Shown here: piece by piece, positions 24,290-59,347 of the stretch | How positions within the stretch are numbered: the stretch's first letter is position 1 | Layout: each line of letters begins with the position of its first letter | Assembly (NCBI GenBank): GCA_022683945.1 | Contig: JAJHSH010000067.1 | Span: 2,085 to 66,084 of the forward strand | Origin: Candidatus Acetothermia bacterium | GTDB lineage: Bacteria > Bipolaricaulota > Bipolaricaulia > RBG-16-55-9 > DRXL01 | Direction: 5' to 3' | DNA length: 64,000 nucleotides | The notes under the pieces: generated by a model | What the model was told of the DNA's origin: nothing | Seen by the model: only the letters and a program-made list of their open reading frames with translations | Databases searched by the model: none | Program-made: the position numbers and the translations under genes

Positions 24290-25006
24290 TTAACTTATGA
24301 AATCGTAGACGCCCTGGACACGCGCATCCAGACGGATCTCTTGAGGCGTCCCTTCGGCCAACACCCGACCCTGATGCAAGACTGTGACGAGATCGGCCAG
24401 CGCGCGCACCACGGTCATATCGTGCTCGACGATCAGAAGCGTCTGTTGCTTTGCTTTGAGATCCAGCAAGAGTCGGACGATGCTCTCGGTCTCGGGCTGG
24501 CTGAGCCCGGCGGTCGGCTCATCGAGCAAACAGAGTCTAGGTTCTTGAGCGATGGCTAGCGCCAGTTCAACGAGTCGCCGCTCGCCGTGCGAGAGCTCTC
24601 GCGCTCGACGGTGCGCCTGCTCACACAAGCCAAGGCGCGCCAACAGCGCGCGCAGCGCCTCTGAGTTTGCCGAACAGAGCCGCCCGCGAGCGAGGGCCGC
24701 GCGCAGGGCTTCTTCTACGGTCAGGTCCTCAAAGAGATGGGAGATCTGAAATGTTCGTACTAACCCCAAACGTGCAATCTGATGGGGCATCAGCCTTACG
24801 AGAGAATCTCCTCCAAAGAGAATAGTTCCGTCATCGGGAGCGAGTGCGCCGGAGAGCAGGTTGAGCAGTGTGCTTTTGCCTGCGCCGTTGGGGCCGATGA
24901 CGGCGCGAGTCTCGCCGCGTCGCAGCGTCAGCGTCACGTTGTCTATGGCGCGCAGACCGCCGAAAGATCTGCGCAGATTTACGGTTTGCAGAATGACATC
25001 GCGCAT
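24290..25006 (-). CDS. livG: Branched-chain amino acid ABC transporter ATP-binding protein (LivG-like)
   Basis: Walker A GPNGAGKST, signature LSHGERRLVELA, Walker B LLDEP. Start at Met 10 of the ORF-track call (MRDVILQTVNL), matching LivG N-termini. Confidence 0.85.
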   Translation of the reverse strand: MRDVILQTVNLRRSFGGLRAIDNVTLTLRRGETRAVIGPNGAGKSTLLNLLSGALAPDDGTILFGGDSLVRLMPHQIARLGLVRTFQISHLFEDLTVEEALRAALARGRLCSANSEALRALLARLGLCEQAHRRARELSHGERRLVELALAIAQEPRLCLLDEPTAGLSQPETESIVRLLLDLKAKQQTLLIVEHDMTVVRALADLVTVLHQGRVLAEGTPQEIRLDARVQGVYDFIS

Positions 25007-25200
25007 AGAGAACAGCCACCTGTTGGCTATCATTCTAGCGTATCTCGGAAGATAGGTCGAGAGGCATGGGGCTCTGCGCCTATAGAGCTGGCGGCAGATA
25101 CCCCAAGGCCGAGACCGATTTCAGCAGGATGAAGACAGTGGCTTAGAAGAAGATCTAAGGGCCAAAGATGGAACAGCTATCTCTTAAGACGCTGGAGTAT

Positions 25201-26271
25201 CTAGCGCGCGCGGCTCTCCAAGGCCTGCCATAGCCCGGCATAATCGCCCCGCGGGTTCCAGAAGAGATAGCTCTCTATGCCAAGTTCGTGCGCCGCACGC
25301 AATTGCGCCTGAATATATTGTGTATAAGTCATGGTTGCAGGAATGCGCATCTCGAAAGCCTGCAAGAAGGGCCGCAACGAGAGCCCGCGCTCCTGCCCAG
25401 CCGAGATCGCTTTCTTGATAGTGCCATATGGATCCGCACGAAGCGCTTCGGTCTCATAGTGCGAGGGGTAGATCATCGGCGAGAGGACATTCACATAGCG
25501 CTGAAAGGTCTCCAAGTGTTGCCCGATGGGATCTATCTTTTTCAGATTCCAAGACCAGAGCGCCCGCCCGAAGACGTCGGCCGAGAGCGCGATCTTCTTA
25601 TGAAGCTCTCTGTGTGCACGCTGCAAGAAACGCTCAATAGCCGCGTAACGCTCAGCGTAGATGGGTTGATAAACTCCACCGTCGGGCCAGCGCACATAGT
25701 CAAACTGTATCTCGTCAAAGCCCAGCATGGCTACTTCCTCAGCAATGGCTAAATTATATTCTTGCACGCGCTCGTCGGCTGGGGAGACCCAACGCCCCGA
25801 CTCGCGCTCTGTCTTCAGCGCATCTAAATATTGCGCCAGTTTGGGATCGTAGAAGAGCACTTGACGGGCGATGAGATAGAAGCCCTGTGCTTTGAGCTGG
25901 GGGAGCAGTTCGCCTAATTTCAGTATGGGCCGCCGCGCGCCGATCTTCTGGACTAAAGAGACTTTTGTGTCATAATAGACCAGACCGTGATTATCTTTGA
26001 TGTCAATGACCAATGCGTTAAAACCGACGCGTCGCGCGTTCTCCGTGATCGTTTGGAGCTTTTTGGGATGGGCTGCGACGTGAGCGGGCAGATAGACTCC
26101 ACGGATAGGCTTATGCGCAACGGACGGCGCTGCAGGCACGGGAATCTGAGCCGGCTGCGCGACCAACAGCAAGAGCGCCAGCGTCGCCAGTACAAACCCT
26201 GCTCCCAAGAGACCGAAGATTCTCCAGATGCGGATGCGAAAGAAACGATAAGTGTTTTTCAAACAGGCCAA
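25201..26271 (-). CDS. Membrane-anchored putative glycoside-hydrolase-like TIM-barrel protein (DUF4015/GHL-type), hypothetical
   Basis: 356 aa; N-terminal TM anchor (IFGLLGAGFVLATLALLLLVA), then a domain resembling uncharacterised GH-like families (GVYLPAH..., NALVIDIKD, FDEIQFDYVRWPD). Weak assignment. Confidence 0.4.
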   Translation of the reverse strand: MACLKNTYRFFRIRIWRIFGLLGAGFVLATLALLLLVAQPAQIPVPAAPSVAHKPIRGVYLPAHVAAHPKKLQTITENARRVGFNALVIDIKDNHGLVYYDTKVSLVQKIGARRPILKLGELLPQLKAQGFYLIARQVLFYDPKLAQYLDALKTERESGRWVSPADERVQEYNLAIAEEVAMLGFDEIQFDYVRWPDGGVYQPIYAERYAAIERFLQRAHRELHKKIALSADVFGRALWSWNLKKIDPIGQHLETFQRYVNVLSPMIYPSHYETEALRADPYGTIKKAISAGQERGLSLRPFLQAFEMRIPATMTYTQYIQAQLRAAHELGIESYLFWNPRGDYAGLWQALESRAR

Positions 26272-26342
26272 CTCCTCAGCGTCAGAGCGGGCCTCCGAAT
26301 CGTTTATAATCTAGAGCCACAGAAGGAGACAACCAAGGTCAT

Positions 26343-27587
26343 ATGTCCATTCTCCTAGAGAAAGCCCGCCAGTTGCTGGCAGAGCGAGAGCTCTGTGATC
26401 ACTGTCTGGGACGGTTCTTCTCGTCGTTGGGGTCCGGGCTGCGCAATCGCGAGCGCGGACGCGCCCTGCGCGTTGTGCTGCAGATGGAAGACCGCTCGAT
26501 AGCGCTCTCCCAGAATCACTGCGCTCTCTGTCAGGGGATCTTTACCAACGTGAGCAACTGGGCCGAGCGCGCCGTGACGGCCGTGTCGAATCTAGAGTTT
26601 CAGACATATCTGATGGGGACGCGCGTACCCACAGAGATCGAAGTCGTCGAACAGGCCCTTCAGCAAAAATTTGAACTGCGAGGCGAGCCGTTCAAGCAGG
26701 AGTTCAATCGCGAGGTGGGGCGTCTGTTCGGTACGCTCTTGGCCGAGCGCGGCCACCCCGTCCAAGTAGACTTTCGCGAGCCACAGATCGTTCTGGTCAT
26801 GGACTTAGAGAAATCTGAGCTGGCGCTTCAGATCAATTCGCTCTTTATCTATGGGCGCTATCGAAAGCTGGTGCGGACGATCCCTCAAACCAAGTGGCCC
26901 TGTCGGTCGTGTCGGGGGCGGGGCTGTCGAGAGTGCGACTTCACGGGCAAGACTTATCCAGAGAGCGTAGAAGAACTCATCAGTCCGCCGCTGTTGCGCG
27001 AGACCCACGGGAGTGGGACGGCCTTTCACGGCGCGGGACGAGAAGATATAGACGCCCTGATGTTGGGAAATGGTCGTCCCTTTGTCATAGAGATCAAAGA
27101 ACCAAAAGTTCGAACGCTCGATCTAGAGCTTCTCCACGGAGAGATCAACGAGCGCGCTCTAGGCAAGATAGAAGTCTCTCAGTTGCAATTTGTTCCCAGT
27201 TCCGTTGTCGAGCGCCTGAAGAATTTAGAAGCCGAGAAGCTCTACGAAGCGCGAGTGCGGTTCTCTAAAAAAATTAGCCCAACTTGTCTGCACGAAGCCT
27301 TCGCGATGCTCCAAAAGACTCCGATTCAACAAAGAACACCCCAGCGGGTGAGCCATCGCCGCGCCGATCTGGTGCGCACACGGCGGGTTCTAGAGATCTC
27401 CGGTGAGCTCACCAGTCCGACCGAAGCGCTGGTTAGAGTTCACAGCGAGGGCGGGCTTTATATCAAAGAGCTCATATCGGGCGACGGTGGGCGAACGAAG
27501 CCCAGCCTCAGTGAGCTATTGCAGACGCCCGCCGAAGTGATAGAACTGAACGTCTTGGAGGTCATCGGGGATTTTTTGTCAAAATAG
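26343..27587 (+). CDS. tRNA pseudouridine synthase Pus10-like protein (archaeal/eukaryal type)
   Basis: 414 aa. N-terminal zinc-ribbon Cys pairs (CDHC...CALC; CRSCRGRGCREC), GAGREDIDALMLGNGRPF (Pus10 catalytic-Asp motif as recalled), and YIKELISGDGGRTKPS (Pus10 thumb-loop signature as recalled). Confidence 0.65.
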   Translation: MSILLEKARQLLAERELCDHCLGRFFSSLGSGLRNRERGRALRVVLQMEDRSIALSQNHCALCQGIFTNVSNWAERAVTAVSNLEFQTYLMGTRVPTEIEVVEQALQQKFELRGEPFKQEFNREVGRLFGTLLAERGHPVQVDFREPQIVLVMDLEKSELALQINSLFIYGRYRKLVRTIPQTKWPCRSCRGRGCRECDFTGKTYPESVEELISPPLLRETHGSGTAFHGAGREDIDALMLGNGRPFVIEIKEPKVRTLDLELLHGEINERALGKIEVSQLQFVPSSVVERLKNLEAEKLYEARVRFSKKISPTCLHEAFAMLQKTPIQQRTPQRVSHRRADLVRTRRVLEISGELTSPTEALVRVHSEGGLYIKELISGDGGRTKPSLSELLQTPAEVIELNVLEVIGDFLSK

Positions 27588-27628
27588 ACACATACGTCCC
27601 GCTTAAATAAACCACCAAGCGATCATTC
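27584..27628. repeat. Direct repeat copy 1 (about 45-50 bp), begins at the pus10 stop codon
   Basis: ATAGACA..CCCGCTTA..AATAAACCACCAAGCGATCATTC matches 29455-29505, with one mismatch in the 23-nt core. Confidence 0.7.
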
Positions 27629-27754
27629 TAGAGGGCGAGACCGGGGGCTTCGCGCGCGTTCACTAAGACCGGCAAGATCCTTGGCGGAACCATCGTGGCG
27701 TGCCACGCAAGAGGGAGATAGAGCGACAAAACACGTATGACGCCGAAGTTGGCT

Positions 27755-29350
27755 TTATGGTTCCCGCCCGACCACGAACGTGTGGAGCACGCCATTGGTT
27801 TCTGAGTCCACCGAGGTCGTGGTTTCAGTGGAAACCCAAAGTGTCGTTGCGCCGCTGATCGTAATCGGGCCGAGCATGATTTTATCTGCGGTCAGCTTGA
27901 TCACCACTTGCGGCAGCGGCGCGCCATTGACGAGAGCCGTGACGCTCGCGAGCGCGGAAAAATCTCCGCGCAACACGAGCGTCGGCTCAAGCGTTTCTCC
28001 GCTCGCGTCCAATGCGGAATCGAAGACCGGCTCGACCAACTTGTTGAGCGAAATGGTGAGCGGCTTGGCTTTGCTCACTGTCAACGCGGCGAGCACGAGA
28101 TCAAACGTCACCGTATCGGCACGACTCAGCTCGACTTCTAGTGAGTTAGTCTCGGACTTCCGGGTCGCGCGTATCGCGCCGGGTTTGTTCGTCCACGGCG
28201 CGGTAATATCAAGCTCCACCCAATACGCTTTGCGATGCGTGTTCGTGTAGGATTTGTAAACCACGGTCTTGGGAGCGCGAAGGCGCGTGCGCCGGCTGAG
28301 AAATTCCATCATGCCGATCAGCTTGCCGGGATTCTGCGGATCGTCAACGCCGCTGATGCCGGAGGCCGGCGTTGTGCCCATGACCCACTTGCTGTCGACC
28401 TGATGTCGAACCGGCGTGAACATGAACGCCCAATCATAGCCCTCCCGATGACGCGTATGCAGCTCCGATAAAGTCGGTGTGTGACCAAAGCAGAGCTTCG
28501 TCTTGCCGTGACATCCGTTCCACGAAGGATCCATCAGCATGTGCGCGCCGTGTTGATATTGTCCCGGCGTTGGAATGTTGTACGCGACGCCATCCTGCGT
28601 GCCGTGCCCATGATAGACCGGCAGATTGTAAGCATTCTCCACGAGAAAACGTCCGCTGGTAATCGTGTACATCGTATTGACGAACGGGCTGTCGCCGGGC
28701 TTGCCGCCGGTCATGCCTTCCTTGCAGGCCGCGGGTTCGGGCCGACGCACAAAAATTTCGTACATATCCGCAGCCGGCCCGAGCGGCGCGATGGCCGCAA
28801 AGAGATCGGGATTCTTCAGTCCGATGATGTACGCACCGCGGCCGCCCATCGAAAAGCCGGAGAGATAGATGCGATCTTCATCAATCGGAAAGTTCGCCTT
28901 GGCCCAGGTGATAGCGTCGAGAATGTCGCGCTCGCCGGGACCGACGTTGGGATTGGGATTATCTACATAAGCCGCGGAGGTTCGCCACGGGCAGCCTTGA
29001 TTGGCGAGGTTCCATCTGCGGCCATCGGGCGCGAGCGCGATCCATCCGCGGCTATCAAACTCCTGCGTCATTGCCGGATGGAACGTGCCGAGTCCGCCGC
29101 CGCCGTGCAAATAGACAAAGAGCGGAACTTTGCCGGCTTGCGGGTTGAAATTTTTAGGAATCCAAAGCAATGAGGTAAGCGCCTCGCCGTCAATCGAAGA
29201 ACGATACGTGATGCTTTGCGAACCGGGCAGTTGAGCGGGCACAGTTACGGTGATGCTGTCCGACGCGGCATCGCCAGCGCCGTTCTCCGCTTGGGCGAAG
29301 CAAAGTGAGTTGAGCAAAAGAAAACAGATGAATAATTTCAGTTTTCTCAT
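27755..29350 (-). CDS. Secreted alpha/beta-hydrolase (esterase/depolymerase-like)
   Basis: Start at Met 36 of the ORF-track call (MRKLKLFICFLLLNSLCFAQA signal peptide). GFSMGG nucleophile elbow, YLHGGGG oxyanion region, Thr/Ser-rich C-terminal beta-domain. Confidence 0.75.
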   Translation of the reverse strand: MRKLKLFICFLLLNSLCFAQAENGAGDAASDSITVTVPAQLPGSQSITYRSSIDGEALTSLLWIPKNFNPQAGKVPLFVYLHGGGGLGTFHPAMTQEFDSRGWIALAPDGRRWNLANQGCPWRTSAAYVDNPNPNVGPGERDILDAITWAKANFPIDEDRIYLSGFSMGGRGAYIIGLKNPDLFAAIAPLGPAADMYEIFVRRPEPAACKEGMTGGKPGDSPFVNTMYTITSGRFLVENAYNLPVYHGHGTQDGVAYNIPTPGQYQHGAHMLMDPSWNGCHGKTKLCFGHTPTLSELHTRHREGYDWAFMFTPVRHQVDSKWVMGTTPASGISGVDDPQNPGKLIGMMEFLSRRTRLRAPKTVVYKSYTNTHRKAYWVELDITAPWTNKPGAIRATRKSETNSLEVELSRADTVTFDLVLAALTVSKAKPLTISLNKLVEPVFDSALDASGETLEPTLVLRGDFSALASVTALVNGAPLPQVVIKLTADKIMLGPITISGATTLWVSTETTTSVDSETNGVLHTFVVGREP

Positions 29351-29454
29351 AGAATCCCTCCGTTTCGTCGACATCATTAATGCTGAGATTTTAAAGGGCT
29401 GGTAGTAAAAAGTCTGTAGAAAGAAGATTAAAAGACGGGGACGCTCACAGCACA

Positions 29455-29505
29455 ATAGACATTCACCCCGCTTATCTGCTAGAATAAACCATCAAGCGAT
29501 CATTC
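29455..29505. repeat. Direct repeat copy 2
   Basis: ATAGACATTCACCCCGCTTATCTGCTAGAATAAACCATCAAGCGATCATTC; pairs with 27584-27628. Confidence 0.7.
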
Positions 29506-29564
29506 ACTCCTCCCCAACCTCCCCGTATGCGGGGAGGGAAAGGGGTGGGGTAAGAGGGGGAAGT

Positions 29565-30320
29565 ATGCAAGCTCTGAGAATCGTTCTCTTCAGTCTGGTC
29601 GTGTTGTCCTTGGGGATCTCTTTCGCGCAAGCCCAGCCGGCTGCGGGATATGTCTCTCTGCGCCTGCTGGGGCCGAGCCATCTCTGCACGCTCGAATTCG
29701 ACGGAGCGCTCGCCTGTAAGATCCGATTAGGGCAGATCCTGCAAGTCTGGGCCAAGGCCCACGGCAGCCCCGCGTGGGCACCGATTAGCTTAATTGCGAA
29801 CTGGCTCCCGGATAATGCTTCTTTTGAGTCGGTCTGGCGCCAAGGCGAAGCCGTCCAAGTCTTCACGTTTACCCCGCAAGCAGCACACGTCACCAAACCC
29901 GGCGACCCGTTGAGAGTGCGCTTCATCACGCGAAACGATTACGCCGGCGATTGGCGCGAACTGAGAATCTACATACAGCCCAACCGGCCGCCCGTCGCCG
30001 ATCCCGGCCCTGATCAGGTCGTTCATCCGGGTCAGATCGTCTTGTTAAGCGCCTTCGAGAGCACCGACCCCGATGGCGAAGTCTTGCAGTATCGCTGGGT
30101 GCAGATCGCCGGCCCGCCCGTCTTGCTCTTCGGCGACGAGACGCTCTACGCGGTCTTCATCGCCCCGACAGCTCCGGCCAAGCTCGTCTTTCGCTTGATC
30201 GTGAGCGATGGGGCCTATAGCGCTTATAAAGACGTCACGATCTCTGTGGAGCCCAAGACAGGATGGCTCACGCTGCTGGGAGGCAACGGGGTAAGCTCGC
30301 TTTTCGATGATCGTCGTTGA
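29565..30320 (+). CDS. Secreted protein with PKD/Ig-like domain
   Basis: Signal peptide. NRPPVADPGPDQVVHPGQIVLLSAFESTDPDGEVLQYRWVQIAGPPV matches the PKD-like repeat pattern (PVA.AGPDQ.V....V.LDGS.S.DPDG....Y.W.Q..GP). Confidence 0.5.
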   Translation: MQALRIVLFSLVVLSLGISFAQAQPAAGYVSLRLLGPSHLCTLEFDGALACKIRLGQILQVWAKAHGSPAWAPISLIANWLPDNASFESVWRQGEAVQVFTFTPQAAHVTKPGDPLRVRFITRNDYAGDWRELRIYIQPNRPPVADPGPDQVVHPGQIVLLSAFESTDPDGEVLQYRWVQIAGPPVLLFGDETLYAVFIAPTAPAKLVFRLIVSDGAYSAYKDVTISVEPKTGWLTLLGGNGVSSLFDDRR

Positions 30321-31099
30321 ACTCTGTTAATCAGTATCAATGGTTCTGGCTGCTCGCCGCAGCCATGACTCTGGGGCTGCTTTGGGAGATAGGAGTCTGG
30401 CTCTCTCAAACGCCCGTCTATATCTTGCCCGCGCCGAGCCGGATCGCGATGCGTTTTGTCTCCGATTTTTTCTTAATCGTTGAGCACTTCTTCGCCACGC
30501 TGAGCGGCGTGCTCTTGGGCTTCATCCTAGCGCTGGTCGCCGCGCTCCTCATAGCGCTCGCTATTTTCTATAACAGAATTATAGAGCGCTTGCTCTACCC
30601 GACGATGATCTTTCTGCAGAACATGCCGTTGTTCGCGATAGCGCCGTTGTTAAAGCTCTGGCTCGGTTTTACGATCTGGCCCAAGATCATCATCGTAGCT
30701 CTTATCGCGTTTTTCCCTATGGCTGTCAATACGGTAGATGGGCTGCGCGCTACCGAGAGCGAACTGATAAGATTCTTCAAGATCTTGGGGGCTTCGCGAC
30801 GGCAAACGCTATGGAAGTTGCTCTTTCCCTCAGCGCTGCCGTTCATCTTCTCTGGGATGCGTGTGGGGGTGACGCTCAGCGTCGTCGGCGCGGTGATCGG
30901 GGAGTGGGTGGGAGCCCAAGCGGGCTTGGGCTATCTGATGCTGCGGGCCAATGCGACGCTCAAAACAGATTTAGTCTTCGCGGCGATCTTCGTGCTGGCT
31001 GGCTTGGGCGCAGCGCTCTTTGGGATTTTGACGCTGCTGGAGCGCGCTTGCACGCCGTGGCGCTTTATTGGCTCTCACACGGCAAATCTGCTAGACTGA
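30317..31099 (+). CDS. ABC transporter permease, NitT/TauT (SsuC/TauC-like) family
   Basis: 260 aa, 6 TM, EAA-region ILGASRRQTLWKLLFPSALPFIFSGMRVG. Confidence 0.75.
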   Translation: MNSVNQYQWFWLLAAAMTLGLLWEIGVWLSQTPVYILPAPSRIAMRFVSDFFLIVEHFFATLSGVLLGFILALVAALLIALAIFYNRIIERLLYPTMIFLQNMPLFAIAPLLKLWLGFTIWPKIIIVALIAFFPMAVNTVDGLRATESELIRFFKILGASRRQTLWKLLFPSALPFIFSGMRVGVTLSVVGAVIGEWVGAQAGLGYLMLRANATLKTDLVFAAIFVLAGLGAALFGILTLLERACTPWRFIGSHTANLLD

Positions 31100-31100
31100 C

Positions 31101-32219
31101 GTGCCTATGTCTTTTACAAGTTTAGTGCTCAAGAATCTTTGGCGACATAAGATTCGCAGTCTCTTAGCAATCACGGGGATCAGTTTGGGGATCGCGACGA
31201 TCATCGCGCTCGGCGCGGTGGCCGACGGCATGGAGCAGAACTTAATAGCAACGTTGCGCTCCGGCAAAGCCGACTTTTCTATAGGCCAAGCCAACGCCCC
31301 GATGATCATTTTAAGTTCCGTTCCCCAAGCGCGCGTCGCCGAGATCGCCCGCTGGGAAGAGGTCGAGCAAGCCGTAGGCGCGCTCGTCTCCTTCTCTAGT
31401 TTCCAAAATAACCCCTATTTTATGGCCATCGGCATCGAGCCGGAAGCGCTCGATCTCGGTGGGGTAACTATTCTCCAAGGGCGTCCGTTCGCACGCGAAG
31501 ACGAAATTCTCTTGGGGAAGATGACCGCCGGCACTCTGAATATCTCTTTGGGAGAGAGCGTCTCGCTCGACGCGCAGCGCTTGCGCGTCGTCGGCATCTA
31601 TGAGACGGGCAATCTCTTTCAAGACGCCGGCGCGCTGCTCTATCTGCCTACGTTACAGAAGCTCAAGAACCGTTCTGGTGAGATCACGGTGATCTTAGTC
31701 AAAGCTAAAGCGGGAGCCGATCTCAATCGCTTGACCGAGCGCGTCGAGCGCGCATATAAAAATGAGCTGGTCACGCTGCGCTCTGCAGAAGAATTTAATA
31801 GAAATTATCAGAGTTTGAGCTTGGTGCGCGCGGGAAGTTGGCTCGTCTCGCTTTTGGCTTTGGTGATCGGCGGGATCGGCGTGGTGAACACCATGATGAT
31901 GTCGGTCTTTGAGCGGACGCGCGAGATTGGGATCTTAAGGGCCGTAGGCTGGCGACGCTGGCGCGTCTTGCAGCTGGTCTTGGGGGAATCGCTCTCGTTG
32001 GGGATGCTCGCAGCGCTGGCGGGGACGCTGATGGGATGGGCCTTGGCACGGGCGGTCGTCTTGCTCCCGCAGGCGCGCGGCTTGATCGCCCCCGCTTATG
32101 GCTCCGAATTGTTTTTAAAAGCGCTCGCACTCTCACTGGTCGTCGGGCTGCTCGGAGGGCTCTATCCGGCCTACAGAGCTTCGAAGATTCTGCCTCAAGA
32201 AGCGTTGCGCTATGAGTGA
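31101..32219 (+). CDS. ABC transporter permease, FtsX/MacB/LolE-like
   Basis: 372 aa; N-terminal TM, large extracytoplasmic domain, C-terminal 3-TM FtsX module. GTG start at 31101 or ATG at 31107. Confidence 0.8.
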   Translation: MPMSFTSLVLKNLWRHKIRSLLAITGISLGIATIIALGAVADGMEQNLIATLRSGKADFSIGQANAPMIILSSVPQARVAEIARWEEVEQAVGALVSFSSFQNNPYFMAIGIEPEALDLGGVTILQGRPFAREDEILLGKMTAGTLNISLGESVSLDAQRLRVVGIYETGNLFQDAGALLYLPTLQKLKNRSGEITVILVKAKAGADLNRLTERVERAYKNELVTLRSAEEFNRNYQSLSLVRAGSWLVSLLALVIGGIGVVNTMMMSVFERTREIGILRAVGWRRWRVLQLVLGESLSLGMLAALAGTLMGWALARAVVLLPQARGLIAPAYGSELFLKALALSLVVGLLGGLYPAYRASKILPQEALRYE

Positions 32220-32892
32220 GAAAATTATTATCGCCAAAGATTTAGTGAAGACCTATGAGAACGGGCGCACGCGCGCGCTCGACGGGGTCAGTCTGGAGAT
32301 CTTTCGCGGAGAAGCCGTAGCGATCTGTGGGCCATCGGGCTCGGGTAAGAGCACTCTTTTGAATCTCATCGGCGCGCTGGATCGTCCAGATTCTGGAGAA
32401 CTCATCGTCGCCGGCGAAAATTTGGTACGTCAGCGGAGCGATCTCGCGGACTTCCGCGCGCGCAAACTGGGCCTGATCTTTCAGTTGCACAATCTCATCC
32501 CCGCGTTGACAGCGCTGGAAAACGTGCTCATCCCAACGTTGGGGATCAACGGAGGAAGACGAGAGATCCAAGCGCAGGCAAAGATGCTCCTAGAGCGGGT
32601 TGGCTTGCACGATAAGACTCATCGTAGGCCGCCGGAACTATCGGGCGGAGAGCGCCAGCGCGTGGCCGTCGCACGCGCGTTGGTCAACAACCCCGAACTC
32701 ATTCTTGCCGACGAGCCCACCGGCAGCTTAGATTCCAAGAGCGAGAAGCAAGTACTCGATCTGCTGAGAGAGCTGCAAACTGAGCGCGGAGTCACTTTGA
32801 TCTTAGTGACGCACGATCCGCGTGTAGCGCAAAGCGCCGACCGCGTCATCGAGCTCTTAGACGGGTGCGTCAGAGCCCCAGTTGCCGCTTGA
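32212..32892 (+). CDS. ABC transporter ATP-binding protein (LolD/MacB-type)
   Basis: Walker A GPSGSGKST, signature LSGGERQRVAVARAL, Walker B ILADEPTGSLD. Confidence 0.9.
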   Translation: MSEKIIIAKDLVKTYENGRTRALDGVSLEIFRGEAVAICGPSGSGKSTLLNLIGALDRPDSGELIVAGENLVRQRSDLADFRARKLGLIFQLHNLIPALTALENVLIPTLGINGGRREIQAQAKMLLERVGLHDKTHRRPPELSGGERQRVAVARALVNNPELILADEPTGSLDSKSEKQVLDLLRELQTERGVTLILVTHDPRVAQSADRVIELLDGCVRAPVAA

Positions 32893-42014: not shown

Positions 42015-42054
42015 GAGGGGGGTACGCGCCAGCTTGAATCTCAGGCGCTCTTCC

Positions 42055-42180
42055 CCAAAAACCGCGCGATCTGTCTGTCAGGGAGACGCTCGCCTATCAC
42101 TTCAAGCGTGTCGAGCACCCGATGGGGTGACTCATAGAACACAACGGTACAAGACTCTCTAGCTATCTGTTGAAAGAACT
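42055..42180 (-). pseudogene. rsmI internal fragment (diverged duplicate of 43376-43500)
   Basis: About 85 nt nearly identical to the intact rsmI (GCGCGATCTGTCTGTCAGGGAGACGCTCGC[C/T]TATCACTTCAAGCGTGTCGAGCACCCGATGGGG...), with weaker similarity continuing for about 60 nt. Confidence 0.55.
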
Positions 42181-42185
42181 CGCGC

Positions 42186-42413
42186 TTGGCTTTGGGCTGC
42201 ATTCAGCGTTTAGTCCAAGACTTAAACTTTCCCGTCAAAATTATCGCCGCACCGACGGTGCGCGATCCCGACGGCTTAGCTATGAGCAGCCGCAATGTTT
42301 ATCTAACCCCAGAACACGGTACTCTATCGGTCTTTGCAGGGTGTAAAAGCTTTGATAGGATTGGGCAGATACTGAGAACCGAGTACAGGAGATTCCAGCG
42401 ATTGATTGAGTGA
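42186..42413 (+). pseudogene. panC 3' fragment (pantoate--beta-alanine ligase C-terminal region)
   Basis: Translation ...[29 protein letters not shown]... matches the PanC C-terminal motif (VREADGLALSSRNVYL). Only 75 codons, no N-terminal domain. Confidence 0.55.
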
Positions 42414-42430
42414 ATTCTTGCTGCGGCGGT

Positions 42431-42688
42431 TCAGTAAGCCTTGGAACGAGGCTTGATCCGGTAGACTCGCACTTCATGCGCTTGGTCATTCACAGCATAC
42501 AGAATCCGCCAACCGCCTACTCGCAAGCGATACCTGGGTGGGTGGATGTCTCGCAGCTTGCGTACCCCAGGTGGGCGAGGATTTTGCTCTAAACTCAACA
42601 AGCGTTCCTGCATCCGCTGTGCCACCGTTGGATCGAGTCTGCGGAAGTCCTTCTGGGCAGATATTTCTAAGAGAACGCGATAGCTCAT
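42431..42688 (-). CDS. RelE/ParE-family toxin
   Basis: 85 aa; ...RKLRDIHPPRYRLRVGGWRILYAVNDQAHEVRVYRIKPR typical RelE/ParE C-terminus. Confidence 0.75.
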   Translation of the reverse strand: MSYRVLLEISAQKDFRRLDPTVAQRMQERLLSLEQNPRPPGVRKLRDIHPPRYRLRVGGWRILYAVNDQAHEVRVYRIKPRSKAY

Positions 42689-42879
42689 TCTGTTGTCGAA
42701 GGGCTCCTGTCTTTCAACCGACGCAGGAACTCGCGCAGCTCAATAGCTTGTTTCGGATCGGATTCTGCGATGGCCTCTTCCAGATCCAGCGCATCTTCGA
42801 GGTCTTCGAGCAGCGTGCGTACCGCATCTTCCGGCAGCTGATCAATGAGGTGCTTGGCTTCTTCTTTGAGGGCACTCAT
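42685..42879 (-). CDS. Putative antitoxin / addiction-module component
   Basis: 64 aa acidic helical protein immediately upstream of, and overlapping, the RelE/ParE gene (4-nt overlap). Confidence 0.5.
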   Translation of the reverse strand: MSALKEEAKHLIDQLPEDAVRTLLEDLEDALDLEEAIAESDPKQAIELREFLRRLKDRSPSTTE

Positions 42880-43062
42880 GGGTCAACTCCTTTCCGTTGA
42901 AGAAGCTTAACGAATGAAGGAAGTGATGTCAAAGTGCGCCGCGCAAGGGCTGATCGTGCTGGTGGTCTGCTCGCATTACACAATTAACCCCGGCTAGAAG
43001 CACCTCTCGGCGATAGGAGCTTTGAAACGCAAAAAACGCAGCCAGATTTCGTGGCCCAGTAA

Positions 43063-43962
43063 TTATTGCAGAAATCTTACGCGCGCGTTCTTTCCAACAA
43101 CTTTCTCATAGACTTCCCGCTTAGGAACCCTTCTCAGTTGGGCGACCCGCTTGATCGCTTCTTTCTTCTCTAGTCCTCCAGCGACGAGCTTCTGCACATG
43201 CTCCACAACTGAAAGCTCTAAGTCTTTGCTGGCTTCTTCACTCTCTTCTTGAACTGACGCGCTGGAGAGCACCAAGGTGATCTCCCCTTTGATCGCCGGG
43301 CGCGATTTCAGCTGCTCCAAAATCTCGCTGGGCTTGCCCCGCAGAATCTCCTCGTGCATCTTCGTCAATTCGCGACAGAGCGCGATCTGTCTGTCAGGGA
43401 GACGCTCGCTTATCACTTCAAGCGTGTCGAGCACCCGATGGGGCGACTCATACAGAACGATAGTGCGTCTCTCGTTTTGCAATCGCTCGAAGAGTGCACG
43501 CTTGGCTTTGAGTTTCTTCGGTGGGACACCCTCGAAGAGAAAGCTGTCGGTGGAGAACCCCGATGCGACCAATGCTGTGATGAGGGCCGTCGGCCCCGGA
43601 ATGGGAACAACCGAGATATTTTCAGCGATTGCTCGTCGAACTAACTCGTACCCTGGATCGGAGATGAGCGGCGTCCCTGCGTCGGAGATGAGCGCGATCT
43701 TCGCCCCGGATTTGAGCTTCTGCACAAAATACTCGACGCGCTCGCGCTCCACCCCGCGATACAAGCTACGCTCGAAGGACTTCTCGATTCCGTAGTGCTG
43801 CAAGAGCTTCCGTGAATGTCGGGTGTCTTCAGCGATGATCAGATCGCACTCTTTGAGAACTCGCAGCGCCCGCAGCGTGATGTCTTCTAAGTTCCCGATG
43901 GGCGTGGCGACGATGAATAATGCGCCGGAAGACCTCTCTCCCAGCCCCTCCCCAACCCTCAC
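43063..43962 (-). CDS. rsmI: 16S rRNA (cytidine1402-2'-O)-methyltransferase RsmI
   Basis: GALFIVATPIGNLEDITLRALRVLKECDLIIAEDTRHSRKLL and the rest of the tetrapyrrole-methylase fold. Proposed GTG start at 43962 (codon 77 of the ORF-track call; GGGAGAGGG upstream); the longer call runs through GC-rich hairpin repeats and overlaps prfB. Confidence 0.7.
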   Translation of the reverse strand: MRVGEGLGERSSGALFIVATPIGNLEDITLRALRVLKECDLIIAEDTRHSRKLLQHYGIEKSFERSLYRGVERERVEYFVQKLKSGAKIALISDAGTPLISDPGYELVRRAIAENISVVPIPGPTALITALVASGFSTDSFLFEGVPPKKLKAKRALFERLQNERRTIVLYESPHRVLDTLEVISERLPDRQIALCRELTKMHEEILRGKPSEILEQLKSRPAIKGEITLVLSSASVQEESEEASKDLELSVVEHVQKLVAGGLEKKEAIKRVAQLRRVPKREVYEKVVGKNARVRFLQ

Positions 43963-44029
43963 CCCGTCCCTCTCCCTTGAAGGGAGAGGGTGCAGGGTGA
44001 GGGTCCCCCTTCCCGCGTTGGGAAGGGGG
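43955..44029. repeat. GC-rich nested hairpin repeat element (ACCCTCACCCC-G-TCCCTCTCCC / GGGAGAGGG-TGCA-GGGTGAGGGT, then CCCCCTTCCC-GCGTT-GGGAAGGGGG)
   Basis: Perfect or near-perfect inverted repeats read directly. Related copies at 18821-18844, 29518-29537, 38620-38641, 40096-40163 and 52087-52108. Confidence 0.7.
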
Positions 44030-44112
44030 CTTCGGGGGTTAGGTCTTGCATTTCTCACACAACAATCATAGAATACTGTCAGTAGATTGTGCAAACAAGG
44101 AGGAAGATAGCC

Positions 44113-45184
44113 GTGCTCCAAGAACTTCGCGACCGCCTTACGCAGATCGCTGATCGCCTTTGACTTGTCGGCTCTAGAAGCCGAACTCAAAACGCTGGAA
44201 GATCAGATGGCCGTTCCCGGTTTTTGGCAGGAGAGAGAGCGAGCGAAGCTCCTCTCCCAGCAAGTCGAGCAGAAGCGCCGAATTCTTCAGAAATATCAAG
44301 CGCTTGAGACCCAGCTCGACGACTTAGAAGTCTTAGAGGAGTTGGGCAAGGCCGAGGGCGACCCCTCCGTCGAGCGCGAGGTTCAGCTTGGCGCTCAGGA
44401 GTTCGGAAAGCGTTTAGAGATACTCGAACTTGAAGCCTTTCTCAATGAGCCCTACGACGAGAACGATTGTTATCTCAGCATCAACGCCGGCGCTGGGGGC
44501 ACCGACGCACAAGACTGGGCCGAGATGCTCCTGAGAATGTATTTGCGCTACCTCGAAAGACGGCGTTGGCGAGCAAGTTTGATCGAAGTCAGCCCCGGCG
44601 AAGTCGCTGGAATTAAGAGCGCCACGGTCGAAATCTCTGGGCCGTATGCGTATGGCTATCTGAAGGCCGAGCGCGGCGTCCATCGGTTGGTGCGAATCTC
44701 GCCGTTTGACGCGAACGCCCGGCGGCACACGTCGTTTGCCGCCGTTACGGCAGTTCCCAAGGTCGAAGAGGCCGACGTCGAGATCCGCCCGGAAGATTTG
44801 CGCATTGACACCTATCGCGCCGGAGGAGCGGGCGGCCAACACGTCAATAAGACAGATTCTGCTGTGAGAATCACGCACCTGCCCACGGGGATCGTCGTGG
44901 CGTGTCAAAAAGAGAGAAGTCAGCACCAGAACAAAGCCATCGCGATGGAGATTCTCACGGCGCGTTTATATGAACTGAATCTTCGAGAGAAAGAAAAAGA
45001 GTTAGCAAAAGTGCGCGGGGAGCTGCGCGCGATTGAGTGGGGCAGCCAGATTCGGTCGTATGTCTTGCAGCCCTATCAGTTGGTGAAAGACCATCGCACG
45101 GAGATCGAAGTCGGGAACGTACAGGCTGTCTTGGACGGCGAGCTGGATACTTTTATTGAGGGGTATCTGAGACGGAAGCGATAA
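44113..45184 (+). CDS. prfB: Peptide chain release factor 2, with programmed +1 ribosomal frameshift
   Basis: Frame-0 leader GTG(44113)...CGC CTT TGA C with in-frame TGA at 44161-44163. Shifting +1 at CTT (44158-44160) joins to DLSALEAELK... (ORF-track 44165). SPF (RISPFD) and GGQ (GAGGQHVN) motifs present. AAGGAGG upstream of the GTG. Confidence 0.85.
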
Positions 45185-57827: not shown

Positions 57828-57867
57828 CACCTCGGAGTTCGGCTTGCTGACGCATAACTATTGATTA

Positions 57868-57944
57868 GACGGCATTCTGCGGTCTCATCTCTTTTCGCCG
57901 GCAATTATAAACCCGACTCGGCTCGCTGTCAACATCTGTTGAAC
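57868..57944 (-). promoter_or_regulatory. Repeat copy A: consensus promoter TTGACA-N17-TATAAT (minus strand) with palindrome GTCAACA-TC-TGTTGAA over the -35
   Basis: Minus-strand -35 = reverse complement of 57927-57932, -10 = reverse complement of 57904-57909. About 85% identical over about 80 nt to 59204-59279. Confidence 0.6.
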
Positions 57945-57965
57945 TGTGTGCTTTAGAGCGCACTT

Positions 57966-59181: not shown

Positions 59182-59203
59182 ATTTATTCGTGTTGTACAA
59201 TCA

Positions 59204-59279
59204 GACGGCATCTTGTAGTCTCATCTCTTTTCGCTGGCAATCATAAACCCGACTCGTCTCGGTGTCAACATCTGTTGAC
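59204..59279 (-). promoter_or_regulatory. Repeat copy B: TTGACA-N17-TATGAT promoter with perfect palindrome GTCAACA-TC-TGTTGAC
   Basis: Minus-strand -35 = reverse complement of 59263-59268, -10 = reverse complement of 59240-59245; palindrome at 59264-59279. Confidence 0.6.
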
Positions 59280-59347
59280 CGGTGCGCTATGGAACTCCGT
59301 TGGGTTCTTCCACTCTTGTTCTACCACAATGCACAACCTTTTTTATG

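What the first reader, a model, noticed from the sequence alone, without database searches (positions are those of the whole stretch)
27584..29505. Secreted esterase gene bracketed by about 50-bp direct repeats: apparent single-gene insertion between pus10 and the PKD-protein gene
Copy 1 starts exactly at the pus10 stop codon. Copy 2 lies 1.87 kb downstream, just before the next gene. The repeats share ATAGACA, CCCGCTTA and a 23-nt core AATAAACCA[C/T]CAAGCGATCATTC. Only the minus-strand alpha/beta-hydrolase gene, which has an AT-rich signal-peptide region, lies between them. No integrase or transposase is present. This is consistent with insertion by duplication-generating recombination or an old mobile-element footprint.
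Basis: seen in the sequence. Interest (0 to 1): 0.5.

Follow-up and report, generated by a model that had tools for sequence, protein, structure and literature searches.

The report
Foreign esterase gene inserted, promoter duplicated
A single secreted-esterase gene, whose closest relatives are in Bacteroidota-type bacteria, was spliced into the 60-bp gap between two native genes of an uncultured Bipolaricaulota bacterium, copying that gap (a promoter) on both sides; this is a clean but fairly ordinary case of horizontal gene transfer.

Summary
The repeat occurs only twice in the window: copy 1 at 27583-27635 and copy 2 at 29454-29505. Sister-species genomes (Pus10 87-88% identical) have pus10, a 60-bp spacer with one copy of the repeat, then the PKD gene, and no esterase. 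That is the predicted empty site. The repeat is the native promoter and 5'-UTR of the PKD/ABC-transporter operon (TAGACA-18-TGnTAGAAT, conserved in relatives). Copy 2 keeps this promoter. Copy 1 lost 8 bp of the spacer and -10 region. The esterase is foreign: it is 86-87% identical over 1.5 kb to a gene of a T9SS-bearing (Bacteroidota-type) MAG and nests inside that clade. It lacks that gene's Ig-like and T9SS sorting domains, and it is closer to that homologue (dS 0.43) than the flanking host genes are to the sister species (dS 0.5-0.75). Composition is not anomalous. The insert has no recombinase, no terminal inverted repeats and no tRNA. The most likely mechanism, which is inferred, is a one-off illegitimate insertion at a staggered break or by template switching that duplicated about 58 bp of target. 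A decayed integrase-borne element is the main rival. This is a new member of a known kind and of moderate interest.

The parts
26343..27587 (+). pus10 (tRNA pseudouridine 54/55 synthase, archaeal type). This native gene borders the insertion on the left, and its stop codon TAG (27585-27587) lies inside repeat copy 1.
   Evidence: Pfam Pus10_C 3e-67 and Pus10_THUMP_arc 3.5e-20. Orthologues occur in Bipolaricaulota MAGs with conserved DUF4015-pus10 synteny.
27583..27635 (+). Repeat copy 1 (AATAGACA...ATCATTCTAGAGGG). It is a duplicate of the native pus10-PKD spacer. Its promoter is disabled: the -35/-10 spacing is cut to about 13 nt by an 8-nt deletion, and the TGnTAGAAT element is lost.
   Evidence: Aligned with copy 2 and the empty sites. 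No promoter was called here, unlike at copy 2.
27636..27754 (.). Left non-coding flank of the insert, of unknown origin. It has no repeat, no notable structure and no domain remnant.
   Evidence: No match to the other insert end, to the rest of the window or to other loci. No Pfam hit in the three minus-strand reading frames tested. Fold z-score +0.27. No nucleotide similarity to the T9SS-tail coding region of the homologues.
27755..29350 (-). Horizontally acquired secreted alpha/beta-hydrolase (531 aa) of the esterase / PHB-depolymerase-like type. It has a GFSMGG nucleophile elbow and the signal peptide MRKLKLFICFLLLNSLCFA.
   Evidence: Pfam Esterase and Peptidase_S9 score above their cut-offs. 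PDB relatives are LC-Est1C and the Thermotoga esterase 3DOH. The NCBIfam PHA-depolymerase-like match is below its cut-off. The protein is 86% aa identical to P0002 and under purifying selection (dN/dS 0.17).
27780..29331 (-). Stretch with nucleotide homology to the Bacteroidota-type gene: 86.9% over 1519 ungapped nt (29298-27780), plus 28 nt of signal-peptide coding at 93% (29331-29304). The Ig-like Big_7 domain between these two pieces and the T9SS C-terminal domain after 27780 are absent.
   Evidence: blastn against L084, L085 and L086 and BLASTP against P0002.
29351..29453 (.). Right non-coding flank of the insert. It is the AT-rich upstream region of the esterase and has a GGAGGG Shine-Dalgarno sequence 6 nt before the ATG. 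Its origin is unknown.
   Evidence: Sequence. GC dip to 0.49. No match to the upstream regions of the homologues or elsewhere.
29454..29505 (+). Repeat copy 2. It is the retained native promoter and 5'-UTR start of the PKD/ABC operon: -35 TAGACA (29456-29461), an 18-nt spacer, and TGC-TAGAAT (-10 at 29480-29485).
   Evidence: Promoter scan gave 10/12 matches with an extended -10. The same elements are conserved in the empty sites of L091-L097.
29506..29552 (+). A 46-47-nt imperfect palindrome (hairpin) inserted in the operon's 5'-UTR between copy 2 and the ribosome-binding site. It is specific to the esterase-bearing lineage and its origin is unknown.
   Evidence: Absent from the empty sites. 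Present only in esterase-bearing strains among 108 loci. MFE -38.3 kcal/mol for the 96-nt leader, z -2.7. Only spurious Rfam hits.
29553..30320 (+). The native ribosome-binding site (AGAGGGGGAAGT) and the PKD-domain protein gene (29565-30320), first gene of the operon whose promoter was duplicated.
   Evidence: Pfam K319L-like_PKD. It is 81-84% aa identical to the gene that follows pus10 directly in L091 and L093.
30317..32892 (+). The rest of the native operon: BPD-type permease, MacB/FtsX permease and ABC ATPase.
   Evidence: Pfam. The permease and the MacB gene start are orthologous to those of L093.

Best explanation
Shown: in the recent ancestor of this Bipolaricaulota (Acetothermia) species, a foreign DNA segment of about 1.82 kb (27636-29453) entered the 60-bp spacer between pus10 and the PKD/ABC-transporter operon. 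The segment carries one complete gene for a secreted esterase-type alpha/beta-hydrolase, whose lineage resides in T9SS-bearing, Bacteroidota-type bacteria. Almost the whole spacer (about 52-58 bp, from the last pus10 codon to the Shine-Dalgarno sequence) now flanks the insert as a direct repeat. That spacer is the operon's own sigma-70-type promoter and 5'-UTR.

Inferred: the event did not use a recombinase. It was an illegitimate insertion of a linear fragment at a staggered double-strand break, or a replication template switch out to the foreign DNA and back. Filling in or re-copying the roughly 58-nt stagger produced the duplication. Only an insertion that duplicated the spacer could survive, because it left pus10 with its stop codon and the operon with its promoter. 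After the insertion, copy 2 stayed under selection as the working promoter. Copy 1 would have fired antisense into the esterase gene, and it was disabled by an 8-bp deletion and substitutions confined to the -35/-10 interval. The esterase kept its Sec signal peptide. It lacks the Ig-like domain and the T9SS sorting tail of its nearest relatives, so it is presumably exported by Sec alone.
For: Empty site: seven contigs from two sister lineages have pus10, a 60-bp spacer and the PKD gene, with one repeat copy. blastn of L093 on the window shows homology up to 27638 and again from 29553.

Foreign origin: the best homologues are T9SS-tailed proteins at 86% and 83% aa, and no other hit carrying a source name is labelled Bipolaricaulota/Acetothermia, although most hits are unnamed. 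Nucleotide identity is 86.9% over 1519 ungapped nt. The gene is nested as (P0003,(P0002,window)) inside a T9SS clade. dS to P0002 is 0.43, against 0.72-0.75 (pus10) and 0.50-0.54 (PKD) between the host and the empty-site species.

Not an artefact: identical junctions occur in independent assemblies from at least 7 samples and 2 strains.

The repeat is host sequence: both copies share derived bases relative to the outgroup spacers, and the promoter elements are conserved in relatives.

No mobile-element hallmarks: no integrase or transposase nearby, no terminal inverted or direct repeats at the insert ends, no protein-domain remnants in the left flank, and the only tRNA genes lie about 5 kb upstream, not at the junction.

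The differences between copy 1 and copy 2 cluster in the promoter interval: 3 substitutions and 2 indels in about 21 nt, against 1 substitution in the next 30 nt.
Against: The mechanism itself cannot be observed. The true donor is unsampled, so junction microhomologies cannot be read. A 52-58-bp target duplication is much longer than break-repair or transposition usually leaves in bacteria. Direct repeats of this length that begin at the 3' end of a gene are the classic signature of integrase att sites. Whether this organism has end-joining enzymes is unknown, because only 64 kb was examined. Composition gives no independent support for foreignness. The homologue is GC-richer than its surroundings in both T9SS MAGs, so the ultimate source and direction beyond 'into Bipolaricaulota' are not fully settled. 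The antisense-silencing explanation for the decay of copy 1 rests on very few mutations.
Confidence: 0.55

Rival explanations
1. The repeats are attL and attR of an integrative element. The element inserted by site-specific recombination at the 3' end of pus10, using an integrase it encoded or one acting in trans. It later lost everything except the esterase cargo.
For: Direct repeats of about 50 bp that start at the stop codon of a gene are typical of att sites. The region downstream of pus10 is a flexible hotspot. Relatives have tsaD there, or glyoxalase/arginase, or the PKD operon, and toxin-antitoxin genes are nearby.
Against: There is no integrase gene or recognisable fragment in the insert or within +/-10 kb. 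Only 119 and 103 nt of non-coding DNA remain at the two insert ends. The repeat is the host's own conserved promoter and carries host-lineage-specific derived bases in both copies. No other copy of the sequence was found in any fetched locus or in the metagenome scan.
Confidence: 0.2
2. This was Campbell-type 'insertion-duplication'. A circular, or circularised, DNA molecule that already carried a copy of the 58-bp host spacer next to the esterase recombined with the chromosome by a single homologous crossover. The homology segment was therefore duplicated on both sides.
For: A single crossover with a circle yields exactly this structure: an insert flanked by direct copies of a host-derived segment. 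Homologous recombination is active at this locus. A 3%-divergent tract of about 3 kb ends within 40-90 nt of copy 1.
Against: A chimeric molecule must first have formed that joined host promoter DNA to the foreign gene, and that still needs an illegitimate event. A homology of 58 bp is short for RecA-mediated crossover. No such molecule or second locus was found.
Confidence: 0.12
3. The esterase and both repeats are ancestral to the clade. The 'empty' sites of the sister species arose when recombination between the repeats deleted the gene.
For: Deletion between direct repeats is common and would regenerate a single-copy spacer. Both empty-site lineages could form one clade, so a single loss might be enough.
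Against: The esterase is closer to a T9SS-clade gene (dS 0.43) than the flanking host genes are to the sister species (dS 0.5-0.75). It nests within the T9SS clade, and no other named Bipolaricaulota homologue was found. The two copies differ by only about 8%, which implies a duplication much younger than the species split.
Confidence: 0.04
4. The repeat is a chance match or a genome-wide dispersed repeat, or the locus is a chimeric assembly.
For: Metagenome-assembled contigs can be chimeric.
Against: No match was found in any of 100 shuffles. The core occurs twice in filled genomes, once in empty-site genomes and never in the other 94 loci. The junctions are identical in independent assemblies from many samples.
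Confidence: 0.01

Closest known systems
Small variable segments or genomic 'islets' generated by illegitimate recombination (Touzain et al. 2010, Genome Biol 11:R45, PMC2884548)
   Same: It is a segment of less than 4 kb that is present or absent between close relatives. It carries no mobile-element genes and is bounded by direct repeats. About 10% of such segments in E. coli, S. aureus and S. pyogenes are repeat-flanked, and illegitimate recombination is proposed as the main source.
   Different: The repeats in that study are mostly under 30 bp and are read as deletion substrates. Here the repeat is 52-58 bp. The polarity (insertion) is fixed by outgroups and by the foreign phylogeny. The duplicated block is a whole promoter-bearing intergenic spacer.
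Integrase-mediated genomic islands with attL/attR at the 3' end of a target gene
   Same: Foreign cargo is flanked by direct repeats of tens of bp, and the first repeat overlaps the end of a conserved gene, so the gene stays intact.
   Different: There is no integrase. The insert is only 1.8 kb with one gene. The target is not a tRNA or tmRNA gene. The repeat is the host's own promoter rather than an element-borne attP identity block.
Target-site duplications of DDE transposons, casposons and CRISPR repeat duplication
   Same: A target segment is duplicated on both sides of the inserted DNA, as expected from staggered strand breaks followed by fill-in.
   Different: From general knowledge of these families, known bacterial transposon duplications are 2-15 bp, casposon duplications are about 14-15 bp, and CRISPR repeat duplications are about 28-37 bp. 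Here the duplication is 52-58 bp. There are no terminal inverted repeats and no transposase, Cas1 or casposase.
Insertion-duplication (Campbell-type) integration, and homology-facilitated illegitimate recombination, in naturally transformable bacteria
   Same: Foreign DNA is trapped in the chromosome without a mobile element. A single crossover with a circle duplicates the homology segment.
   Different: The incoming molecule would have to carry host sequence, and no such molecule is known here. Classic homology-facilitated events usually delete recipient DNA rather than duplicate it.
T9SS-secreted esterase / PHB-depolymerase-like alpha/beta-hydrolases of Bacteroidota-type MAGs (P0002 from GCA_975197305.1; P0003 from GCA_040756515.1)
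   Same: The catalytic and beta-sandwich core is 83-86% identical in amino acids and 87% in nucleotides. The signal peptide is homologous.
   Different: The window protein lacks the N-terminal Big_7 Ig-like domain (P0002 residues ~21-86) and the C-terminal Por_Secre_tail sorting domain (residues 594-679). Homology ends exactly at these domain borders.

Membership tests
Horizontally transferred gene (recent insertion) | An empty target site in close relatives | tested here: met
   L091-L097 have pus10, a 60-bp spacer and the PKD gene, with one repeat copy.
Horizontally transferred gene (recent insertion) | A phylogeny that conflicts with the host phylogeny, with the gene nested in another lineage | tested here: met
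   The gene is nested in the T9SS-bearing clade in an NJ tree. It is 86% aa identical to P0002, whereas the host Pus10 is only 87-88% identical to the sister species and 73-75% to other genera. dS values are 0.43 against 0.5-0.75.
Horizontally transferred gene (recent insertion) | Atypical base composition or codon usage | tested here: not met
   GC is 0.58 and GC3 is 0.69, against host means of 0.569 and 0.674. Codon-usage distance ranks 25th of 34 genes. The nearest homologue has the same GC3, so no contrast is expected.
DDE-transposon / IS / MITE insertion | Terminal inverted repeats and a short (2-15 bp) target duplication, with a transposase for autonomous elements | tested here: not met
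   The insert ends show no inverted or direct similarity (315 of 500 and 496 of 500 shuffles scored as well). The duplication is 52-58 bp. No transposase domain is nearby.
Integrase-mediated integrative element / genomic island | Flanking direct repeats (attL/attR) overlapping the 3' end of the target gene | tested here: met
   The repeat starts at the last codon and stop codon of pus10.
Integrase-mediated integrative element / genomic island | A tyrosine or serine recombinase gene inside the element next to an att site | tested here: not met
   The only ORF in the insert is the esterase. The left flank gives no Pfam hit, and no integrase lies within +/-10 kb.
Integrase-mediated integrative element / genomic island | The same att sequence present on an episomal or other copy of the element (attP) | tested here: inconclusive
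   The core was found nowhere else in 108 loci, and the metagenome-contig scan gave 0 hits. That collection did not contain even the source population, so absence there carries little weight.
Integron gene cassette | An attC site (imperfect palindrome with GTTRRRY core sites) bounding a promoterless ORF, with an intI/attI platform | tested here: not met
   Read directly from the sequence: neither strand of the repeat contains GTTRRRY. The repeat finder reported no inverted pair within either copy. No integrase is present.
Alpha/beta-hydrolase esterase (Pfam Esterase PF00756 / Peptidase_S9 PF00326) | A domain match above the curated threshold, with a G-x-S-x-G nucleophile motif | tested here: met
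   PF00756 scores 27.1 bits (cut-off 22) and PF00326 scores 26.9 bits (cut-off 22.6). GFSMGG lies in the matched stretch. PDB esterases match at 4e-15 and 4e-12.
Extracellular PHA/PHB depolymerase (NCBIfam NF050058, TIGR01840) | A score above the family cut-off | tested here: not met
   Scores are 60 bits against a cut-off of 150, and 33 bits against 108. The protein is related to this family, but the substrate is not assigned.
T9SS cargo protein | A C-terminal Por_Secre_tail (TIGR04183 / PF18962) sorting domain | tested here: not met
   The domain is present in P0002 and P0003 and absent from the window protein. Homology stops at the domain border, and there is no nucleotide remnant downstream. 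There is only a weak frame-shifted peptide match at E 0.019.
Sigma-70-type promoter (repeat copy 2) | -35 and -10 hexamers at 16-18 nt spacing, conserved in orthologous positions, with a transcript start downstream | tested here: inconclusive
   The consensus match is 10 of 12 with an extended -10, and the elements are conserved in the sister species. The scan finds about 1.3 such sites by chance in this region, and no transcript data were available.

The most novel reading that the evidence does not exclude
This lineage may have an uncharacterised DNA-integration route, either a break-repair pathway or a recombinase acting in trans, that inserts small gene islets while duplicating 50-100 bp of target, typically a promoter-bearing spacer. 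A second candidate lies in the same 64-kb window. A GNAT + ParE/Phd islet is bracketed by a 94-nt, 85%-identical duplicate of a consensus-promoter spacer (57864-57957 / 59200-59293). A third pair of repeats (73 nt, 97% identical; 42064-42136 / 43380-43452) brackets a toxin-antitoxin pair and gene fragments.
Probability: 0.12. Interest if true: 0.65.

Novelty: new member of a known kind. Interest (0 to 1): 0.35.

Why it matters
This is a fully documented inter-phylum gene acquisition in an uncultured phylum. The filled site, the empty site, a close foreign homologue and the relative timing are all in hand. It shows three things. First, a gene can enter a tiny promoter-bearing spacer without harming either neighbour, because the spacer is duplicated. 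Second, the surplus promoter copy, which would fire antisense into the new gene, carries mutations clustered in its promoter elements. Third, the acquired protein lacks the Bacteroidota-specific T9SS sorting tail and Ig-like domain of its nearest relatives but keeps the universal Sec signal peptide. The unusually long duplication without any recombinase gives a concrete case for studying how foreign DNA is fixed in bacteria that lack recognisable mobile elements at the site. It does not reveal a new kind of system.

Tried and rejected
1. Composition (GC, GC3, codon usage) as evidence of foreignness: no signal.

2. GTDB representative genomes as a source of an empty site: the closest have only 73-75% Pus10 identity and have tsaD, not the PKD operon, after pus10, so they are uninformative for the site. 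The empty site came from protein-cluster look-ups instead.

3. A degenerate 23-nt core scanned against metagenome contigs: 0 hits, not even the source population.

4. Terminal inverted or direct repeats at the insert ends, and extension of the duplication into the pus10 3' end: none beyond chance.

5. A decayed T9SS-tail remnant in 27636-27779: no nucleotide similarity and no Pfam hit. There is only a weak frame-shifted peptide match. This is treated as inconclusive.

6. Known RNA families in the repeats, flanks and hairpin: only sub-threshold Pab91 noise at the hairpin. The left flank has no notable fold.

7. A genome-wide repeat or REP-like element as the explanation for the repeat or the hairpin: both are confined to this locus in all the sequence held.

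8. An empty-site test for the second repeat-bracketed islet (D1): the sister species has a different gene after the helicase, so no test was possible.

9. Literature search on Pus10 in Bipolaricaulota: no paper found.


Full report
**1. The observation**

The window holds a convergent and then divergent gene trio: pus10 (26343-27587, +), an alpha/beta-hydrolase (27755-29350, -) and a PKD-domain protein gene (29565-30320, +). The PKD gene heads a transporter operon of a BPD-type permease, a MacB/FtsX permease and an ABC ATPase.

The 23-nt core AATAAACCA[C/T]CAAGCGATCATTC occurs exactly twice in 64 kb, at 27606-27628 and 29483-29505. With up to 3 mismatches allowed, none of 100 dinucleotide-preserving shuffles gave a match. 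ATAGACA and CCCGCTTA precede both copies. Copy 1 includes the pus10 stop codon (TAG, 27585-27587).

**2. What the repeat is**

The organism belongs to Candidatus Bipolaricaulota / Acetothermia. The closest Pus10 proteins in GTDB species representatives are 73-75% identical. The source contig and a sister strain come from JGI metagenomes 3300045482 and 3300045452.

A protein-cluster search found two sister lineages with Pus10 at 87-88% identity. In all seven of their contigs, pus10 is followed after exactly 60 bp by the PKD gene, with no esterase (L091, L092 and L093-L097).

The L091 spacer reads ATAGACAGTCCCCCGGCTTATGTGCTAGAATAAACTACCAAGCGATCATTCTAGAGGGGGGATTATG. This is a single copy of the repeat followed by the ribosome-binding site and the start codon. 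The 13-nt core occurs:
- twice in every esterase-bearing locus,
- once in every empty-site locus,
- never in the other 94 loci held.

The alignment refines the anatomy:
- Copy 1 runs from 27583 to 27635 (AATAGACA...ATCATTCTAGAGGG).
- Copy 2 runs from 29454 to 29505.
- In copy 2 a 46-47-nt hairpin (29506-29552), absent from the empty sites, follows before the native AGAGGGGGAAGT-ATG resumes.

blastn of L093 on the window agrees. Homology runs up to 27638 and resumes at 29553.

The spacer reads as a sigma-70-type promoter with an extended -10 element: TAGACA, 18 nt, TGC-TAGAAT. These elements are conserved in both sister lineages and in copy 2. In copy 1 an 8-nt deletion removes the TGnTAG part and shortens the spacing to about 13 nt, and no promoter is called there. 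Differences between the two copies cluster in this interval. There are 3 substitutions and 2 indels in about 21 nt, against 1 substitution in the following 30 nt. Both copies share bases that are derived relative to the sister-species spacers. They are therefore duplicates of this lineage's own sequence, not a host copy paired with a foreign look-alike.

**3. What lies between the repeats**

The 531-aa protein has a Sec-type signal peptide and a GFSMGG nucleophile motif.
- It passes the Pfam thresholds for Esterase and Peptidase_S9.
- Its nearest solved relatives are carboxylesterases: LC-Est1C and Thermotoga 3DOH.
- PHA-depolymerase models match only below their cut-offs.

The next best hits are P0002 (86% aa) and P0003 (83% aa, labelled Bacteroidota). 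Both have a C-terminal T9SS Por_Secre_tail domain and sit among other T9SS-tailed proteins.

Nucleotide identity to the P0002 gene is 86.9% over 1519 ungapped nt (window 29298-27780). A further 28 nt of signal-peptide coding match at 93%.

Relative to P0002, the window protein lacks the Big_7 Ig-like domain (residues ~21-86) and the sorting tail (residues 594-679). Homology ends exactly at these domain borders. Downstream there is no nucleotide remnant of the tail. A weak frame-shifted peptide match (E 0.019) is inconclusive.

An NJ tree places the window protein as (P0003,(P0002,window)), inside a clade whose other members also carry T9SS tails. The gene is under purifying selection (dN/dS 0.17). 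Its dS to P0002 is 0.43, which is smaller than the dS between the host and the empty-site species for the flanking genes (pus10 0.72-0.75; PKD 0.50-0.54). The two repeat copies differ by only about 8%. Together these results place the acquisition after the split from the sister species and make loss in the sister species very unlikely.

Composition is uninformative. GC is 0.58 and GC3 is 0.69, against host means of 0.569 and 0.674, and codon usage is unremarkable. The P0002 gene has the same GC3.

**4. Not an artefact**

The same junctions, base for base apart from one SNP, occur in independent assemblies from at least seven samples and two strains.

**5. Mechanism**

The insert (27636-29453) consists of the esterase gene, 119 nt of downstream flank and 103 nt of AT-rich upstream flank with its own GGAGGG Shine-Dalgarno sequence.
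- The insert ends show no inverted or direct similarity to each other, and the duplication does not extend into pus10.
- The left flank has no domain remnant in the three reading frames tested and no notable structure. Neither flank matches anything else held, and no known RNA family is present.
- No integrase or transposase lies within 10 kb.
- The only tRNA genes are about 5 kb upstream.

These results exclude a transposon-type event and an integron cassette. They also leave the integrative-element model without its defining recombinase.

I therefore favour a one-off illegitimate insertion at a staggered break, or a replication template switch. Either would re-copy about 58 bp of target. Selection would then explain why the duplicated block coincides with the whole spacer, because only such an event preserves both the pus10 stop codon and the operon's promoter and ribosome-binding site. 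This step is an inference. The donor is unsampled, so junction microhomology cannot be read, and a duplication this long is unusual.

The rivals, in order of likelihood, are:
- a decayed integrase-borne element (attL/attR);
- Campbell-type insertion-duplication of a circle that already carried the spacer;
- ancestral presence followed by deletion in the sister species;
- an artefact.

Small, repeat-flanked, mobile-element-free variable segments are a known class attributed to illegitimate recombination. The repeats reported for that class are mostly shorter than 30 bp (PMC2884548).

**6. Context**

The region downstream of pus10 is flexible across the phylum:
- tsaD converges on pus10 in relatives at 73-77% identity;
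- glyoxalase, arginase, recA and lexA follow in a relative at 78% identity;
- the PKD operon follows in the 87-100% clade.

In the window, the same arginase, glyoxalase, recA and lexA genes lie 8-14 kb further on, separated by DinB paralogues, ankyrin, toxin-antitoxin and other genes. The esterase is the latest addition to a plastic region.

Between the window and the sister strain, about 85 of the 102 differences in 17 kb fall in 24.5-27.55 kb (DUF4015 and pus10) and stop 40-90 nt before the end of copy 1. The esterase and the PKD operon are essentially identical between the two strains. This looks like a homologous-recombination tract that ends where homology with an insertion-free donor would end. 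That reading is also an inference.

**7. Verdict**

The feature is a recent, single-gene, inter-phylum acquisition with an unusually long target duplication that doubled a promoter. It is a new member of a known kind. It is well documented and instructive, but it is not a new system.

Noticed in passing
window 29506-29552: A 46-47-nt imperfect palindrome (ACTCCTCCCCAACCTCCCCGTATGCGGGGAGGGAAAGGGGTGGGGTA) sits in the 5'-UTR of the PKD operon, between the promoter and the ribosome-binding site. It is present only in the esterase-bearing strains and absent from the empty sites of relatives. The leader folds at -38 kcal/mol (z -2.7). No other copy was found in any sequence held, and Rfam gives only noise. 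Its origin and effect (mRNA stabiliser, or by-product of the insertion) are unknown.
   Followed up: partly
window 24500-27545: Against the sister strain (L087), about 85 of the 102 differences in 17 kb are packed into DUF4015 and pus10 (about 3% divergence). They stop 40-90 nt before the end of repeat copy 1. The esterase and the PKD operon are 99.9-100% identical between the strains. This looks like a homologous-recombination tract that abuts the insertion.
   Followed up: partly
window 30317-30332 (PKD/permease junction), compared with L093 3247-4011 and L091 5949-6704: The sister species carry an ABC ATPase gene of about 760 nt between the PKD gene and the BPD-type permease. The window lacks it entirely. 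The only ATPase in the window's operon is the MacB partner at 32212-32892, which is about 34% identical.
   Followed up: partly
window 57864-57957 and 59200-59293: A 94-nt direct repeat (85% identity) contains a consensus promoter (TTGACA-17-TATAAT / TATGAT). It brackets a GNAT acetyltransferase plus a ParE/Phd toxin-antitoxin pair, downstream of a DEAD-box helicase gene. The structure resembles the esterase case, with a promoter-bearing spacer duplicated around a small islet. The sister species has a different gene after the helicase, so no empty site could be checked.
   Followed up: partly
window 42041-43452: A 73-nt direct repeat (97% identity; 42064-42136 and 43380-43452) has one copy inside the rsmI-like methyltransferase gene (43063-44190). 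The other copy lies in a short rsmI fragment next to lexA. Between the copies are a ParE toxin with its antitoxin and a panC (pantoate ligase) fragment (42186-42413). This is a patch of gene debris and mobile cargo.
   Followed up: partly
window 26343-27587: An archaeal/eukaryotic-type Pus10 (tRNA pseudouridine 54/55 synthase, with an archaeal THUMP domain) is encoded in this bacterial phylum and conserved across many Bipolaricaulota / Fraserbacteria MAGs. The next-closest sequences are haloarchaeal at about 45-49% identity. A full-text search found no paper mentioning both Pus10 and Bipolaricaulota.
   Followed up: partly
L084 8001-10040 and L085 8001-10061: In both T9SS-bearing MAGs the esterase homologue is GC-richer than its surroundings (57.7% against 52.8% in L084; 49% against 40% in L085). 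The gene family may therefore have moved into those genomes too, and the ultimate source could be a GC-richer lineage.
   Followed up: no
L098 7243-7988: In the relative with 78%-identical Pus10, a 747-nt stretch without any called gene follows pus10 before the glyoxalase/arginase/recA/lexA block. This is another sign that the pus10 3' flank is a rearrangement hotspot.
   Followed up: no
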